Below, piece after piece: positions 21,001 to 24,000 of a DNA stretch of 64,000 nucleotides. The number at the start of each line of letters is the position of its first letter. The stretch's first letter is position 1. Location of the stretch: NCBI GenBank assembly GCA_965213925.1, contig OZ243927.1, positions 1,920,001 to 1,984,000 on the forward strand, read 5' to 3'. Made by a program: the position numbers. This stretch comes from Trueperaceae bacterium. GTDB lineage: Bacteria; Deinococcota; Deinococci; Deinococcales; Trueperaceae.

Positions 21001-24000
21001 CTGAGCGCCGAGCCCTACCCGACCTCGCCGGTCTCGATGTCGAAGAGGTCGTCGTGGACGGCGCGGGTCTGGGCCGCGTAGACATCAGCGGCGTCATGGC
21101 GCTCCGCACGTGGCAGCGGGAGGTCGAGCGCTCCGGCGTCCCGCTCCGCTTCATCCACTTGCAACCCCACGTGCGCAGGATGATGCGGCGGTTAAAGGAA
21201 TGAGCGTTTTTGTGGTGGGCTTGTATACGTATTGAGCTGACAGGGCGTCAAACCTCTGAACAGTAGTTTGACCCGGTACCTTTACACATCTACGACCTTG
21301 TAAAATAGACCCGTGGACGCCCTCATCCTCTTAGCGAGCTATCTCATCGGCTCGTCACCTTTGGGCAGCTTCCTCGTGGTTTGGGCGACGCGGCTCAAGC
21401 CGAGCGAGGTGACGGCGCACAACTTGGGCATCGAGAATGTAATACGCTTCGTCGGCGTGGGCACTGTGCTCGCGTCGTTCGCTGTGGATGTGCTTAAAGG
21501 CTTCGCGGTGCTGGCGCTTTTCGCAGGCAATCCCTGGGCGGCGCTCGGGGTGTATGCAGGTCATCTCTATCCGCTGACGTGGCTCTCTTACGGCGAAGTG
21601 CCGCGCGGCAGAGGGAGCGGCGTTTTCCTTGGCGTGCTTGTGGGGCTGTGGGTCTACACGGGCGTCCCTCTTTGGACCGTGCTCGCGCCGCTTGCGGTTT
21701 ACGCTACTCTCCTCGCTTGGCGTCGCTACGTCACGCTCGCGACGGTGGCGGGGCTCTTGACGCTCACCTTTACCCTCTCTCTACCCGCGACCTCTCAGCC
21801 TGCGCCGCTGACGCTCGTCGGAAGTCTTATCTTCATTTTAGGACTGTGGCGGCACAAGGTCGGACTCGCGCGGATTTTAGATCAGACGGAGCCGAAACTC
21901 GGCAAGCCACCCCCCGTGCGCGGCGTGGACCCGAACACTGTGACCGCCGCTTTTATGATTCACCCGCTGACGATGGACGACGTTTGGCAACCCGGCAGCT
22001 TGCGTTGGCTCGGCTTTTTAGGGCGGCGCGGCGTCGTTCCGCTACCCTTCATACGCCGCGCGCTGCGCCTCTTACGCCCGCAAAAACAGAGCGAGATGCG
22101 CGGGATTCGCCTCGCGGACGGGCGCGAGTTGCGCGTGATGATCCTCAGCGGTCCCTTGTTCCCCGAGCAGATTCGCCGCTACCCCGAGGAGGCGACGCGC
22201 TTGGCGGTCCAGGGGGCGCGGCTCGCGCACGAACTCGGTGCGGAGGCGTTCGGGCTGGGGGCGTTTTGGTCTACGGTAGGGGAGAAGGGGCTCAAAGTGC
22301 AGGAGGCGGTGCCGGAGATTCACATTACCAACGGCGGCGCGTACACGGCGGCGACGGTCAAGGCGGCGGTGCCGGGGCTCCTCAAACGGTTCGAGGCGGA
22401 GGGGGGCGGGCTGGGGCGCTCGAGCGCTGCTGTCGTCGGCGCAAATGGCGTCGTCGCGTTTGGCGTCGCCCGCACGATTGCCCCGGAGATAGCGCGGCTC
22501 ATCCTCATCGGGCGAGATAGAGCGCGTTTAGAGCGCAGCGCTAGAACGTTGCGCCGCAAATACCCCCACACGGAGATTGAGACAAGCACCGACGTCGCCG
22601 CGTGTGAAACGGCTGACCTCATCTTCACCGCCACCTCCGACCCCGCGCCCGTCCTGTTCGCCCACCACGTCAAACCCGGCGCTTGGATTTTCGACCTCGG
22701 GAGGCCCGCCGACGTGGACGAGGGCGTGCGCGAGGTCCCCGGCGTCCACATCATCCCCGGCGGCGTGGTGCGCCCGCCCGGTGAGATGCGCAGCCACCTC
22801 GACTTGCACTTCGGGGATGGTATGGTGCCCGCTTGTATGGCGGAAACGATGATCATGAGCGCGACGCGGGCGTTTCACCGCAAGTCGCTAGGGAGCGCGA
22901 CAAAAGGTGCCGATATCGACTTCTATTTAGAGGAAGGGGCGCGGCTCGGCTTCGAGATCGTGACCCGCGACGCGCGCGTCGCTAGCCCTAAGGAACTCGC
23001 GTGAGCGTCTCGTTTCACATGCAGGGCGAGTTGGAGAACTTGGAAGCGGAGACCTCTTTACTGTGGGATTTACTGTGGGACGCAGGCTGTCTCGGCGTCG
23101 CGCAAGAGGGTGACGAGGTGGTGGCGTATTTTGCTGAGGTGGTTGCCCTGCCCCTCGAGGGCACCTGGCGAGAGGTTGAAGAGACCGATTATCTGGCGGC
23201 TTATTATGCAGAGCTTGAACCTGTTTATCTCGAGCACCTCATCGTCGCCCCCACCCACTGCGACATCCCCGCAGGTGAAACGCGCCGCGTCCTCTGGCTC
23301 GACCCCGGCATGGCGTTCGGGACGGGGCATCACGCGACGACGTATCTGGCGTTGGCTGCGCTCGAGACCTTCCATCTAGAAAACAAACGAGTTCTGGACG
23401 TGGGCGCAGGTTCGGGTATCTTAACCATCGCTGCCGACCTCTTGGGCGCAGCCGAAGCGGTCGGCATCGACATCGACCCCTTGACCTTGCCCGTGGCGGA
23501 GGAAAACCGAGCGCTGAACGGTTCGAAGGCGACCTTTCGGCTCAGCACGCTGGACGACACGGTCTCCGGAGGCTTCGATATCGTTACGGCGAACCTCTTC
23601 GCCGAACTGCACGTCGAGTTTGCGGCTGCGTATCGCCGCGCTCTGCGTCCAGACGGCTGGCTCTTGGCAACGGGGATTCTGGATGAGCGTTTGGCGCTGG
23701 CAGAGGAGGCGCTGAGCGCTCACCTTACGGTTCACTCGGTTGAATATAAAGAGGAGTGGGCGCTCATCTTGGCGCAGAGATGTGATGACGACATATGAGA
23801 ATCCACCGCGTCTTTCTAAAGGAATTACAAGCAGGGGAGCGGACGCTCTCCGGTGCGGAGGCGCATCATCTCGCGCAAGTTTTGCGGGTTCAACCGGGGA
23901 CGAGGGTGAAAGCGTTCGACGGCTCAGGTTTAGAAGCCGCGGGCGAAGTTCAGGCGGTGGACGAACTGAGCGTCACGCTCCGCTTGGAGTCGCCGGAGCC

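What a model noticed while it worked through the whole genome (the two positions that open the first line are those of the whole stretch)
21313..23004. PlsY-like acyltransferase fused to a cyanobacterial-type acyl-ACP reductase: candidate enzyme for the alkylamine phospho [...]
g01855 (563 aa) is a third PlsY-family protein of this genome (besides g02000 and g02234) whose membrane domain (res. 1-198) is fused to a ~360-residue domain of the fold of the long-chain acyl-ACP reductase AAR of cyanobacteria, with the catalytic Cys (C508, PAC[ML]AETM) invariant. The fused gene (or its halves side by side) is in 13 of 15 Deinococcota genomes sampled from five families, and all named genome hits are Deinococcota. 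A fatty-aldehyde-forming reductase joined to an enzyme that handles acyl-phosphates fits the unexplained synthesis of the phylum's signature lipid, the N-glyceroyl-alkylamine phosphoglycolipid (aldehyde to alkylamine; glyceroyl transfer from an acyl-phosphate such [...]
Evidence so far: pfam.tsv G3P_acyltransf 9-188. Profile of 16 homologues against PDB sequences: PlsY 5xj5 E 4e-16 (res. 5-197), AAR 6jzu/6jzq E 1e-8 (res. 255-515 vs 39-302 of 341), PigE 4ppm E 4e-8. AF2 model pLDDT 83; Foldseek AAR 6jzu/6jzy E 2e-17, TM 0.76-0.78 of target; carmabin TAD reductase 9e56 E 2e-14; PlsY 5xj5 E 1e-8, TM 0.80 of target. 750 full-length homologues at E<=1e-20 among 8000 scored, named ones Truepera/Trueperaceae/Deinococcota; invariant residues. 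13/15 genomes, open frames 564-663 aa, three with one stop inside. 80 of 80 best genome loci are Trueperaceae, Deinococcaceae, Deinococcota or unnamed MAGs; in 77 of 80 the gene lies next to prmA. Lipid structure and the statement that its bi [...]
(Added by a program. Inside this text positions count along the whole contig: contig position 1,920,001 is position 1 of the stretch shown here. "Call 12" and the like, gene names such as g00115 and contig names such as C1 are that model's own, and its searches are not shown. The text may have been shortened before it was handed on; [...] marks where a part breaks off. The agent that wrote the report below was given it as the finding of a first reader that could run no searches.)

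Follow-up and report, generated by a model that had tools for sequence, protein, structure and literature searches.

The report
Membrane-anchored fatty-acyl reductase, PlsY-fused
This gene joins a worn-down copy of the phospholipid-starting enzyme PlsY to a fatty-acyl reductase, and it is the best candidate yet for the first step that makes the long-chain amine in the unusual membrane lipid of Deinococcus, Thermus and their relatives.

Summary
The ORF at 21313-23004 (+) is real. It encodes 563 aa: a PlsY-like 7-helix membrane domain (res 1-197) joined by a short linker to an AAR-fold reductase with an invariant Cys508.

- **Distribution:** the fusion is near-universal in Deinococcota, in 293 of 301 genomes across all five families.
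- **PlsY part:** it has lost the glycerol-3-phosphate clamp (Ser35 lost in 34 of 35). It keeps the acyl-phosphate residue His92 (35 of 35).
- **Characterised relatives:** the PigE and TamH reductase domains both make aldehydes for a transaminase.
- **New evidence:** a separately encoded PigE-like class III aminotransferase co-occurs with the fusion. In Trueperaceae the counts are both 91, either alone 3+3, neither 6. Three genomes lacking both carry a TamH-like aminotransferase-reductase fusion instead.
- **A second partner, "X":** a Cys-less AAR-fold protein found in 294 of 301 genomes. It is fused or adjacent to such reductases in other phyla.

The aldehyde-to-alkylamine reading is therefore strengthened. 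The idea that the PlsY-like domain transfers glyceroyl is untested and mildly disfavoured.

- The fusion also occurs, with a canonical PlsY, in Patescibacteria.
- No split genes were seen in the three loci checked.
- prmA adjacency is Trueperaceae synteny only.
- The lipid is no longer Deinococcota-specific.

No biochemistry exists for any of this.

The parts
21313..23004 (+). Whole gene: 563 aa, GTG start, TGA stop overlapping the GTG start of prmA (GTGA at 23001-23004)
   Evidence: full-length orthologues in 293 of 301 Deinococcota genomes
21313..21903 (+). PlsY-derived 7-helix membrane domain (res 1-197). The G3P clamp is degenerate and the acyl-phosphate His is kept.
   Evidence: Pfam PF02660 res 9-188; below the TIGR00023 cut-off (56.8 against 137.2 bits); fold 5xj5 with TM of target 0.77; residue mapping to aaPlsY
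21433..21435 (+). Glu41 codon, at the position of aaPlsY Thr41, which H-bonds the acyl-phosphate carbonyl
   Evidence: Alignment to 5xj5; Glu in 28 of 35 Deinococcota-type sequences, against Thr in 16 of 19 of the canonical-PlsY sister clade
21562..21564 (+). His84 codon, equivalent to aaPlsY His92 (the acyl-phosphate phosphate-hole side chain)
   Evidence: Invariant in 54 of 54; role taken from PMC5700162
21904..21951 (+). Short linker (res 198-213) between the last PlsY motif (TEPKLG) and the first reductase invariants (F214, H217)
   Evidence: pLDDT 90-95 in this stretch and pTM 0.90
21952..22977 (+). AAR-fold acyl reductase domain (res 214-555)
   Evidence: Foldseek AAR 6jzu_A E 1.8e-18; NCBIfam PigE reductase part; own profile cut
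22438..22458 (+). Nucleotide-binding motif G376-A-N-G379-V-V-A382
   Evidence: G376 and G379 invariant in 54 of 54; Pfam Shikimate_DH Rossmann match at res 367-480
22834..22836 (+). Cys508 codon (PACMAETM), the presumed acyl-thioester nucleophile
   Evidence: Invariant in 54 of 54; aligns with the CMAET of PigE and ACMSET of the lone reductases
23001..24508 (+). prmA (23001-23798) and rsmE (23795-24508). These are overlapping downstream genes. This is family-level synteny, not part of the system.
   Evidence: found next to the gene only in Trueperaceae loci

Best explanation
The protein is a membrane-tethered, cysteine- and NAD(P)H-dependent fatty-acyl reductase of the AAR / PigE-TR / TamH-TR family.

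**Anatomy.** Its N-terminal half derives from the acyl-phosphate:G3P acyltransferase PlsY. That half can no longer clamp glycerol-3-phosphate, but it keeps the acyl-phosphate pocket residue His and the Gly/Arg-rich loop 3. A linker of about 16 residues holds the reductase at the cytoplasmic mouth of that pocket.

**Proposed steps.**
1. An activated long-chain acyl group is taken onto Cys508 as a thioester. The most likely donor is acyl-phosphate held in the PlsY-like pocket; otherwise it is acyl-ACP.
2. The thioester is reduced to a fatty aldehyde.
3. A separately encoded PigE-like class III aminotransferase (contig 311151-312596, outside the window) converts the aldehyde to a long-chain alkylamine.
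4. The alkylamine enters the N-glyceroyl alkylamine phosphoglycolipid.

**Shown versus inferred.**
- Shown: the fold, the invariant Cys and nucleotide motif, the loss of G3P-clamp residues, phylum-wide conservation, and co-occurrence with the aminotransferase and with protein X.
- Inferred: the reductase activity itself, the acyl donor, the hand-over to the aminotransferase, and the lipid end product.
For: 1. **Fold and catalytic residues.** AAR 6jzu_A at E 1.8e-18; Cys508, G376 and G379 invariant in 54 of 54.
2. **Characterised relatives.** The PigE N-terminal domain reduces a thioester before transamination (PMC8341465, passages). The PtTamH TR domain is an AAR-family member fused to a class III transaminase, and with TamA it turns fatty acids into C12 amine (PMC9594044, passages).
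3. **Fusion partners of homologous reductases.** Among 50 relatives scanned, 2 carry Aminotran_3 and 7 carry the lipid-binding SRPBCC domain. In 2 of 9 annotated loci of lone reductases (both Vulcanimicrobiota) the order is Aminotran_3-SRPBCC-reductase-X.
4. **Phyletic link.** The PigE-like aminotransferase has clear orthologues (E 1e-90 to 1e-278) in families f1, f2 and f5. In the 103 Trueperaceae genomes the counts are fusion+AT 91, fusion only 3, AT only 3, neither 6.
   - Within one genus (g17), G234 and G267 have both. G182 and G246 have neither, and instead carry a 926-942 aa class III AT + AAR-reductase fusion with TamH's architecture. G201 does the same with a 955-aa ORF in a 974-aa open frame.
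5. **PlsY part**:
   - Ser35 is lost in 34 of 35. His177 is kept in only 19 of 35 and Asn180 in 16 of 35; all three are G3P-binding residues whose mutation cripples aaPlsY.
   - His92 is kept in 35 of 35, and loop 3 keeps an R-G-(R/K)-G motif.
6. **Single origin.** PlsY-fused reductase domains form one clade (SH-aLRT 100) whose two halves share only the acyl-phosphate features.
7. **Distribution.** The fusion is in 293 of 301 Deinococcota genomes. The lipid is reported from Deinococcus, Thermus and Meiothermus, and by Rf from Oceanithermus, Vulcanithermus and Rhabdothermus (PMC3398001 and PMC3111992, passages). The Thermus alkyl chain is iso-C17, like its fatty acids (PMC3398001).
8. **Controls.** TIGR04058 rings only in Synechococcus, T. 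thermophilus and D. radiodurans among 14 control genomes. No aldehyde-deformylating oxygenase was found in this genome.
9. **Gap in print.** The enzymes of the alkylamine branch were unknown as of 2022 (PMC9636437, passages).
Against: - No enzymology or genetics exists for any member of this fusion family. The reductase activity is inferred from homology at about 20% identity to AAR.
- TIGR04058 gives no match to this protein even at E 1e-5.
- In Thermaceae and family f4, which hold the best-documented lipid producers, the aminotransferase has only paralogue-level matches (about 1e-70), with no reciprocal best hit. The partner there is unidentified.
- Three Trueperaceae genomes have the aminotransferase but no fusion (G142, G237, G262). 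Three others have the fusion but no aminotransferase (G209, G261, G285; 80-90% complete).
- The co-loss amounts to at most three or four independent events among related genomes.
- The gene is never next to an aminotransferase in the 12 Deinococcota loci annotated.
- The polar lipids of this uncultured genus are unknown.
- Use of acyl-phosphate as donor rests only on residue conservation and the fusion itself. I could not read coordinates of the model to measure the distance from Cys508 to the pocket.
- The sister clade keeps a fully canonical PlsY, so the fusion as such does not require loss of G3P acylation.
Confidence: 0.5

Rival explanations
1. The reductase supplies the aldehyde for the amine, and the PlsY-like domain is itself the amide-forming enzyme. 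It would transfer a (phospho)glyceroyl group from an acyl-phosphate such as 1,3-bisphosphoglycerate onto the membrane-held alkylamine.
For: - PlsY chemistry is acyl transfer from an acyl-phosphate.
- The G3P clamp is lost (Ser35 in 34 of 35).
- An acidic residue that could bind or deprotonate an ammonium group sits at the Thr41 position in 28 of 35.
- Arg98 is a new invariant, 35 of 35.
- The domain core (D59, K62, H84, E193) stays invariant, so it is under selection.
Against: - G201, G182 and G246 replace the fusion with an aminotransferase-reductase fusion and have no Deinococcota-type PlsY-like domain. Only 29-30% identity matches appear in G201 and G237, and none in G182, G246 or G142.
- The sister clade has a canonical G3P-competent PlsY.
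- Glu41 is not invariant: 7 of 35 differ.
- Nothing here tests glyceroyl binding.
Confidence: 0.12
2. The enzyme makes fatty aldehyde, but for another end product: fatty alcohols or wax esters, the long-chain 1,2-diols known from Thermus (and, as I recall, from Truepera), ether lipids or alkanes.
For: - AAR itself feeds alkane synthesis.
- PlsC-type acyltransferase + reductase fusions exist (P0193, P0252). As I recall, these resemble the ether-lipid enzyme ElbD.
- 1,2-diol-linked glycolipids occur in Thermus (Wait et al. 1997, seen only as a reference in PMC3398001).
- The aminotransferase partner is unresolved in Thermaceae.
Against: - No aldehyde-deformylating oxygenase is present: PF11266 was not found in the own genome and does not ring in the T. 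thermophilus or D. radiodurans controls.
- The co-occurrence and co-replacement pattern with class III aminotransferases points to amines.
- As I recall, diols are not reported from Deinococcus, whereas the gene is in 112 of 112 genomes of family f2.
Confidence: 0.2
3. The AAR-fold domain is not a reductase. It is an acyl-Cys transferase or amidation enzyme like the putative terminal amidation domain (TAD). It would load an acyl or glyceroyl group on Cys508 and pass it to an amine or to phosphate.
For: - The carmabin TAD has the same fold (9e56, E 8e-15).
- It is proposed to make amides through a Cys thioester (preprint 10.1101/2024.10.28.620694; abstract and two sections read).
- The product lipid contains an amide.
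Against: - TAD activity is itself unproven; the preprint says so.
- By sequence this protein is nearer to the PigE-TR/AAR group than to TAD.
- The nucleotide motif is invariant.
- There is no NRPS context.
Confidence: 0.08
4. It is simply a third PlsY isozyme that still acylates glycerol-3-phosphate, with a regulatory or accessory C-terminal domain.
For: - The Pfam match is above the gathering score.
- Public annotations call it glycerol-3-phosphate acyltransferase.
- The sister clade has canonical motifs.
Against: - It scores below the TIGR00023 equivalog cut-off (56.8 against 137.2 bits).
- Ser35, His177 and Asn180 are not conserved. In aaPlsY, Ala mutants of the clamp residues (Ser35, Arg45, Lys104, Asn180) lose more than 92% of activity, and H177A keeps 6.5%.
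- The genome has a canonical PlsY scoring 164 bits.
Confidence: 0.05

Closest known systems
PtTamH (tambjamine YP1) and PigE (prodigiosin MAP): class III transaminase fused to an AAR-family thioester reductase
   Same: - Same reductase family, with a catalytic Cys in a C-M-A/S-E-T context and a Rossmann nucleotide motif.
- The aldehyde is made for transamination to an alkylamine.
- Best NCBIfam match of the reductase half is PigE (PMC9594044, PMC8341465).
- Some Trueperaceae carry a TamH-like fusion instead of this gene.
   Different: - Here the reductase is fused to a PlsY-derived membrane domain, not to the transaminase, which is encoded elsewhere.
- The gene is phylum-wide and housekeeping-like, not in a pigment gene cluster.
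- The acyl donor may be acyl-phosphate rather than acyl-ACP.
- Identity is low: the PigE match scores 83 bits against a cut-off of 850.
Cyanobacterial acyl-ACP reductase AAR (PDB 6jzu/6jzq; TIGR04058)
   Same: Same fold (E 1.8e-18, TM of target 0.77), with an analogous Cys and NADPH site.
   Different: - About 20% identity, with no TIGR04058 match.
- No ADO partner.
- Membrane-fused rather than soluble.
PlsY, acyl-phosphate:glycerol-3-phosphate acyltransferase (Aquifex 5xj5; PF02660)
   Same: - 7-helix fold (TM of target 0.77).
- Conserved DxxKG, GH(x)xP and TE(P)K motifs.
- The acyl-phosphate His is kept.
   Different: - The G3P phosphate clamp is degenerate: Ser35 to Ala, Asn180 to Gly, Lys104 to Arg in this protein.
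- Thr41 is replaced by Glu.
- There is an insertion of about 6 residues before loop 3.
- It scores below the equivalog cut-off.
Canonical-PlsY + reductase fusions of Patescibacteria (unnamed family, e.g. P0145, P0158, P0189)
   Same: - Same two-domain architecture, same loop-3 insertion and same invariant Cys.
- Sister clade in the reductase tree (SH-aLRT 100).
   Different: - They keep GSGNxGATN, GGKxVAT and HxxNI, so they look like working G3P acyltransferases.
- Identity to this protein is 23-28%.
- Their function is equally unknown.
Carmabin terminal amidation domain (TAD, PDB 9e56)
   Same: AAR-type fold with an invariant Cys beside the NAD site (preprint 10.1101/2024.10.28.620694).
   Different: - TAD is the C-terminal domain of NRPS modules and has a macrodomain-like N-terminal subdomain.
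- Its activity is unproven, and the sequence relationship is more remote.

Membership tests
PlsY (acyl-phosphate:G3P acyltransferase) | Match to the family profile above the curated cut-off | tested here: inconclusive
   Pfam PF02660 is met (78.9 against 24.1 bits). The NCBIfam equivalog TIGR00023 is not met (56.8 against 137.2 bits).
PlsY (acyl-phosphate:G3P acyltransferase) | Seven-helix PlsY fold | tested here: met
   Foldseek 5xj5 at E 8.5e-8, TM of target 0.77, rmsd 3.0 over 202 columns.
PlsY (acyl-phosphate:G3P acyltransferase) | G3P pocket: the Ser35, Arg45, Lys104, Asn180 clamp plus His177 (PMC5700162) | tested here: not met
   In this protein the residues are Ala35, Arg45, Arg100, Gly184 and His181. 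In 35 Deinococcota-type sequences Ser is kept in 1, Arg45 in 23, Lys in 3 (Arg in 32), Asn180 in 16 and His177 in 19.
PlsY (acyl-phosphate:G3P acyltransferase) | Acyl-phosphate site: the His92 side chain, the Gly-rich loop 3 backbone, and Thr41 | tested here: inconclusive
   His is kept in 35 of 35. Loop 3 reads R-G-(R/K)-G. The Thr41 position is Glu in 28 of 35. Binding was not tested.
AAR-family acyl thioester reductase (AAR, PigE-TR, TamH-TR) | Two-subdomain AAR fold | tested here: met
   6jzu_A at E 1.8e-18, TM of target 0.77; 6jzz_A TM of target 0.79. The model has pLDDT 92.7.
AAR-family acyl thioester reductase (AAR, PigE-TR, TamH-TR) | Catalytic Cys between the subdomains, and a GxxGxxG/A nucleotide motif | tested here: met
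   Cys508, G376 and G379 are invariant in 54 of 54. The Cys aligns with the CMAET of PigE.
AAR-family acyl thioester reductase (AAR, PigE-TR, TamH-TR) | Profile match above the curated cut-off (TIGR04058 at 449.7 bits; NF053554 at 850 bits) | tested here: not met
   No TIGR04058 match at E 0.01 or 1e-5. NF053554 gives a partial match of 83.4 bits. It is a distant member of the superfamily, not an equivalog.
AAR-family acyl thioester reductase (AAR, PigE-TR, TamH-TR) | NAD(P)H-dependent release of aldehyde from an acyl thioester | not testable with these tools
   This needs an enzyme assay.
Cyanobacterial alkane pathway (AAR + ADO) | Aldehyde-deformylating oxygenase encoded in the genome | tested here: not met
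   PF11266 was not found in the own genome (96.9% complete). The control rings in Synechococcus.
TR-transaminase fatty-amine module (TamH/PigE type) | Class III aminotransferase physically or genetically coupled to the reductase | tested here: inconclusive
   Neither fused nor adjacent here. However, a PigE-like aminotransferase co-occurs with the fusion (91/3/3/6 in Trueperaceae), and both are replaced by TamH-like fusions in G201, G182 and G246. No clear orthologue exists in families f3 and f4.
Terminal amidation domain (TAD) | C-terminal position on an NRPS module | tested here: not met
   No NRPS domains in the protein or its neighbours.

The most novel reading that the evidence does not exclude
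The fusion would be the first fatty acyl-PHOSPHATE reductase. The PlsY-derived domain captures acyl-phosphate made by PlsX in the membrane, and Cys508 takes the acyl group in place of glycerol-3-phosphate.

Two unlinked genes would complete the pathway: the PigE-like aminotransferase and 'X', a Cys-less paralogue of the AAR fold. Together the three would form the long-sought alkylamine branch of N-glyceroyl alkylamine phosphoglycolipid synthesis.

The same reductase-X(-aminotransferase-SRPBCC) module, unfused, would make these lipids in Bacillota, Vulcanimicrobiota, Armatimonadota and other Terrabacteria. The lipid class would then be far more widespread than known.
Probability: 0.25. Interest if true: 0.85.

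Novelty: new variant of a known kind. Interest (0 to 1): 0.72.

Why it matters
The N-glyceroyl alkylamine phosphoglycolipid is the major phospholipid of Thermus and Meiothermus and a hallmark of Deinococcus. As I recall, it has been known since the 1980s. No enzyme of its alkylamine branch has been named in anything I could search. A 2022 paper still only postulates the step (PMC9636437).

This work gives three concrete, unlinked candidate genes: the PlsY-reductase fusion, a class III aminotransferase and protein X. All three are present in genetically tractable model organisms, so the question becomes directly testable by knockouts and lipidomics.

It also offers:
- a possible new substrate class for AAR-type reductases, namely acyl-phosphate;
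- an example of a lipid acyltransferase scaffold re-used as a substrate-delivery domain;
- natural fatty-acid-to-fatty-amine enzymes of biocatalytic interest;
- a genomic marker to predict these lipids in uncultured Terrabacteria.

Tried and rejected
**Gene neighbourhood.**
- I scanned 88 neighbouring ORFs from 11 Deinococcota loci. Nothing is conserved beyond Trueperaceae synteny (prmA-rsmE).
- A small Sm_multidrug_ex protein lies next to the gene in one f3 and one f4 locus.
- GDPD and PLD-like genes lie next to it in one Deinococcus-like locus only.

**Split genes.** Rejected for the three loci examined.

**Complex prediction.** Complex prediction of X with the reductase domain gave no answer (score 0.00, controls not run). 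This is neither for nor against binding.

**X by sequence.**
- No Pfam or NCBIfam family.
- Nothing in PDB sequences: best E values 0.31 and 0.59.
- Foldseek alone was unclear (TM 0.4-0.48).
- Only VIA-align singled out AAR and TAD.

**Reaching Moorella thermoacetica, a reported producer of N-glyceroyl alkylamines.**
- The one genome-contig scan returned no Moorella record among its best 80 of 509.
- The class around a Thermacetogeniaceae MAG has the reductase in 29 of 30 genomes. NCBI places that family in Syntrophomonadia, so this says nothing about Moorella.
- The Bale et al. 2025 paper is not held. I know only its title.

**Other dead ends.**
- The 198-aa ORF upstream of the aminotransferase is a lipoprotein-like sequence, not an SRPBCC protein.
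- Promoter and terminator scans of 21100-24700 found nothing.
- Earlier notes for this place: none. A word search also found none.
- I could not obtain model coordinates, so the distance from Cys508 to the pocket was not measured.
- Supplements of the papers were not opened.

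
Full report
**Observation.**

The ORF at window 21313-23004 (+) starts with GTG and encodes 563 aa. Its TGA stop overlaps the GTG start of prmA.

- Pfam places G3P_acyltransf (PlsY) at res 9-188 (78.9 bits, cut-off 24.1). It also finds only Rossmann-type families at res 346-480.
- In NCBIfam the best match of the C-terminal half is the reductase part of PigE (NF053554, positions 53-313 of 837, E 1.2e-23). The PlsY equivalog TIGR00023 stays below its cut-off (56.8 against 137.2 bits).
- PDB sequences give PlsY 5xj5 (res 5-197) and PigE 4ppm (res 281-527).
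- An AF2 model from a 54-row alignment has pLDDT 92.7 and pTM 0.90.
- Foldseek finds cyanobacterial AAR (6jzu_A, E 1.8e-18, TM of target 0.77), the carmabin TAD (9e56, 8e-15) and PlsY (5xj5, 8.5e-8, TM of target 0.77).
- The genome has two other PF02660 genes, at 164 and 126 bits. The first carries the canonical motifs.

**Distribution.**

At E<=1e-10 the protein is matched in 293 of 301 Deinococcota genomes. By family the counts are f1 94/102, f2 112/112, f3 62/62, f4 14/14 and f5 10/10. One of the genomes counted is the unpublished G251.

Rows with 'one stop inside' simply include the terminal stop. The three such loci I cut out hold whole ORFs of 557-560 aa, so I saw no split genes.

Context is conserved only within Trueperaceae, as prmA-rsmE. 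In 9 loci of the other four families no PrmA lies within four genes.

A scan of 1.84 billion representatives gave 2281 hits at E<=1e-3, of which 57 are at <=1e-30.

**Wider family.**

Below the orthologues lies a second set of full-length fusions, 23-28% identical to this protein in the 54-row alignment. Their PlsY domain scores 101-154 bits.

- Their named members are Patescibacteria/Berkelbacteria.
- In a quick IQ-TREE of 65 reductase domains, the PlsY-fused ones form one clade with SH-aLRT 100: 13 Deinococcota-type plus 8 canonical-PlsY type. One outlier, P0164, falls elsewhere.
- The Deinococcota part follows the family structure, which suggests vertical inheritance.

The careful tree search did not finish, so this is the quick tree with midpoint root.

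**The PlsY-like domain.**

The aaPlsY structure paper (PMC5700162, passages read) assigns these roles:
- The acyl-phosphate site consists of the loop 3 backbone, His92 and Thr41.
- The G3P pocket consists of Ser35, Arg45, Lys104 and Asn180, plus Ser142 and His177.
- Asn37 stabilises the oxyanion.
- The active site lies half-way into the cytoplasmic leaflet.

Mapped through the HMMER alignment and my alignments, 35 Deinococcota-type sequences show:

| aaPlsY position | Role | In 35 Deinococcota-type sequences |
|---|---|---|
| Ser35 | G3P clamp | lost in 34 |
| Thr41 | acyl-phosphate carbonyl | Glu in 28 |
| His92 | acyl-phosphate site | kept in 35 |
| Gly before loop 3 (Arg98 here) | – | new Arg in 35 |
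| Lys104 | G3P clamp | Arg in 32, Lys in 3 |
| His177 | G3P pocket | kept in 19 |
| Asn180 | G3P clamp | kept in 16 |

The 19 canonical-type fusions keep Ser in 17, Thr in 16, His177 in 19 and Asn180 in 18. Both clades share an insertion of about 6 residues before loop 3.

So the Deinococcota domain is very unlikely to acylate G3P. It does retain what both clades share, namely the acyl-phosphate features. The linker to the reductase is about 16 residues and is modelled with pLDDT 90-95.

**What the reductase is like.**

By sequence it is nearest to the PigE/TamH thioester-reductase group.

- PigE's N-terminal AAR-like domain reduces a thioester to the aldehyde that its own transaminase domain aminates (PMC8341465, passages).
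- PtTamH is a class III transaminase fused to an AAR-family reductase with a catalytic Cys. Together with TamA it converts fatty acids to C12 amine (PMC9594044, passages).
- The carmabin TAD shares the fold but its activity is unproven (preprint 10.1101/2024.10.28.620694, abstract and sections 5 and 8).

Among 50 relatives scanned with Pfam, the reductase is joined to:
- PlsY in 18;
- PlsC-type acyltransferase in 2;
- SRPBCC in 7;
- PilZ in 5;
- Aminotran_3 in 2;
- an unannotated domain of about 300 aa in several others.

**Lone reductases and protein X.**

A genome-contig scan with six lone reductases found 509 relatives; the best 80 were kept. They come from Vulcanimicrobiota/Eremiobacterota, many Bacillota (Caloramator, Desulforamulus, Thermovenabulum, Succiniclasticum, Halonatronum and others), Armatimonadota and Actinobacteria.

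I annotated 9 of 13 chosen loci, giving Pfam 68 of 98 ORFs.
- The typical Bacillota order is coaX-dus-X-reductase-greA-lysS.
- Two Vulcanimicrobiota loci read coaX-dus-Aminotran_3-SRPBCC-reductase-X-greA-lysS.

X is a soluble protein of about 310 aa with no Pfam or NCBIfam family.
- It is the same as the N-terminal domain of the reductase fusions of about 700 aa: BLAST E values run from 1e-27 to 1e-92 for 7 of 12 neighbours tested.
- The own genome encodes X at contig 323417-324361, 50% identical to the Halonatronum protein. It lies beside efp-accB-accC.
- X is in 294 of 301 Deinococcota genomes.
- Its model (pLDDT 90.3) matches AAR (Z 14.5) and TAD (Z 12.8) well above the next chain (Z 9.8).
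- It has no invariant Cys.

X therefore looks like a Cys-less paralogue of the reductase fold and a constant companion of it. Its role is unknown.

**The aminotransferase link.**

With the operon-linked Vulcanimicrobiota aminotransferase as query, the best own-genome match is a 481-aa class III enzyme at contig 311151-312596. Its best NCBIfam match is the aminotransferase part of PigE, at 287.6 bits, ahead of putrescine aminotransferase.

Its orthologues are clear in f1, f2 and f5 (E 1e-90 to 1e-278). In f3 and f4 only matches of about 1e-70 exist, and these are not reciprocal best hits.

Of the eight Trueperaceae genomes without the fusion:
- G201, G182 and G246 instead carry an ORF in an open frame of 926-974 aa, with Aminotran_3 at the N-terminus and an AAR-like reductase at the C-terminus. 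This is TamH's architecture and size.
- At E<=1e-60 this protein is found in 6 of 111 Trueperaceae genomes.
- Those three genomes also lack the 481-aa aminotransferase. Their congeners G234 and G267 have both it and the fusion.
- G167 is a fourth genome lacking both. It has a lone 378-aa AAR-like frame and a 1472-aa multidomain protein.

Over the 103 Trueperaceae genomes the counts are:

| Pattern | Genomes | Which |
|---|---|---|
| both | 91 | – |
| fusion only | 3 | G209, G261, G285 (80-90% complete) |
| aminotransferase only | 3 | G142, G237, G262 |
| neither | 6 | G167, G182, G188, G201, G246, G298 |

The genomes are related, so they reflect few independent events.

All four replacement genomes keep X. 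They have no Deinococcota-type PlsY-like domain (for G201, G182 and G246).

**Link to the lipid.**

- The N-glyceroyl alkylamine phosphoglycolipid is documented in T. thermophilus HB8 (iso-C17 alkyl, like its fatty acids) and in D. radiodurans (PMC3398001, passages).
- It is reported in Meiothermus and Thermus. By Rf it also appears in Oceanithermus, Vulcanithermus and Rhabdothermus (PMC3111992, one passage).
- A 2022 paper only postulates the fatty-amine step, with no gene (PMC9636437, passages).
- Four full-text searches found no gene assignment.
- The lipid is no longer phylum-specific. Bale et al. 2025 report it as dominant in several Bacillota (title seen in two reference lists only). M. 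thermoacetica is listed with N-glyceroyl alkylamines (PMC13274423, table passage).
- I could not test whether lipid-positive strains are the ones carrying the reductase.

Controls:
- TIGR04058 rings in only 3 of 14 well-known genomes: Synechococcus, T. thermophilus and D. radiodurans.
- The alkane partner ADO is not found here.

**Reading.**

Most likely (0.5) this is a membrane-tethered fatty-acyl reductase that makes the aldehyde for the lipid's alkylamine, with the 481-aa aminotransferase as its partner in three of the five families.

I favour acyl-phosphate as the donor and the PlsY-derived domain as a substrate-delivery module, at about 0.35-0.4. Three observations point that way:
- The only PlsY features common to both fused clades are those of the acyl-phosphate site.
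- The linker is short and ordered.
- Genomes that fuse the reductase to the transaminase dispense with the domain.

Other fates of the aldehyde (0.2), a TAD-like transferase (0.08) and a plain PlsY isozyme (0.05) are the remaining rivals.

It is not independent evidence.

**Limits.**

- There is no biochemistry.
- The tree is a quick one.
- The ElbD comparison, the Truepera diol report and the history of the lipid are recalled, not read here.
- Supplements were not opened.

Noticed in passing
own genome, contig 323417-324361 (+), outside the window (locus L139:17418-18362): Protein 'X' is 314 aa with no Pfam or NCBIfam family. It has an AAR/TAD-like fold without the catalytic Cys. It is present in 294 of 301 Deinococcota genomes. 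In Bacillota, Vulcanimicrobiota and Actinobacteria it is fused or adjacent to AAR-like reductases. Here it lies beside efp-accB-accC.
   Followed up: partly
own genome, contig 311151-312596 (+), outside the window (locus L139:5152-6597): A 481-aa class III aminotransferase whose best NCBIfam match is the aminotransferase part of PigE. In Trueperaceae its presence tracks the PlsY-reductase fusion. Clear orthologues exist in f1, f2 and f5 but not in f3 or f4.
   Followed up: yes
L160:6688-9555 (-) (G201); also G182:C17:2884-5655 and G246:C203:2-2722: TamH-like fusion proteins in open frames of 926-974 aa (the G201 ORF is 955 aa). They have a class III aminotransferase at the N-terminus and an AAR-like reductase at the C-terminus. 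They occur in Trueperaceae genomes that lack both the PlsY-reductase fusion and the 481-aa aminotransferase.
   Followed up: partly
G237:C1:1222392-1222607 (-) (locus L158): A one-contig, 97%-complete Trueperaceae genome has only an 83-aa frame with an internal TAG that resembles res 281-352 of the reductase part of the query (about res 485-556 of the protein). It may be a decayed copy. X and the aminotransferase are still present there.
   Followed up: no
own genome, contig 2342124-2342669 (-) (locus L002:1471-2070): The second PlsY paralogue (199 aa, 126 bits) keeps motif 1 and GGKG. It has a degenerate motif 3 (…IKHVPSLKGDKPIF) and Met at the Thr41 position. This is a further divergent PlsY of unknown role.
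   Followed up: no
proteins P0193, P0252; P0167, P0194, P0201, P0214, P0247: Other partners of the same reductase family are a PlsC-type acyltransferase (PF01553), and PilZ (a c-di-GMP receptor) with or without SRPBCC. These hint at lipid-linked and second-messenger-regulated variants.
   Followed up: no
proteins P0145, P0158, P0189, P0287 and relatives: Patescibacteria/Berkelbacteria carry a canonical-motif PlsY fused to the same reductase. This is the sister clade of the Deinococcota family. What a G3P acyltransferase gains from the reductase is unexplained.
   Followed up: partly
L046:8789-10654 (+) (G141) and other g8/g12 genomes: These Trueperaceae orthologues carry an insertion of about 50 residues in the membrane domain after helix 3. 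This is why genome matches there start only at query residue 66-76.
   Followed up: partly
window 14399-29308: The neighbours are ordinary:
- Lon protease, 14399-16843 (-)
- argS, 17200-19023
- HIT-family protein, 19159-19602
- SulP/STAS transporter, 19653-21203
- prmA, 23001-23798
- rsmE, 23795-24508
- PEGA/DUF4384 protein, 25054-26343 (-)
- S8 peptidase, 27902-29308
   Followed up: yes
G134:C1:150362-151627 and C5:1352934-1353338; G289:C1:1459860-1461511: In G134 the orthologue is split between two contigs, in a genome with 16000 withheld bases. In G289 it is in two overlapping pieces, which means a frameshift or a sequencing error.
   Followed up: no
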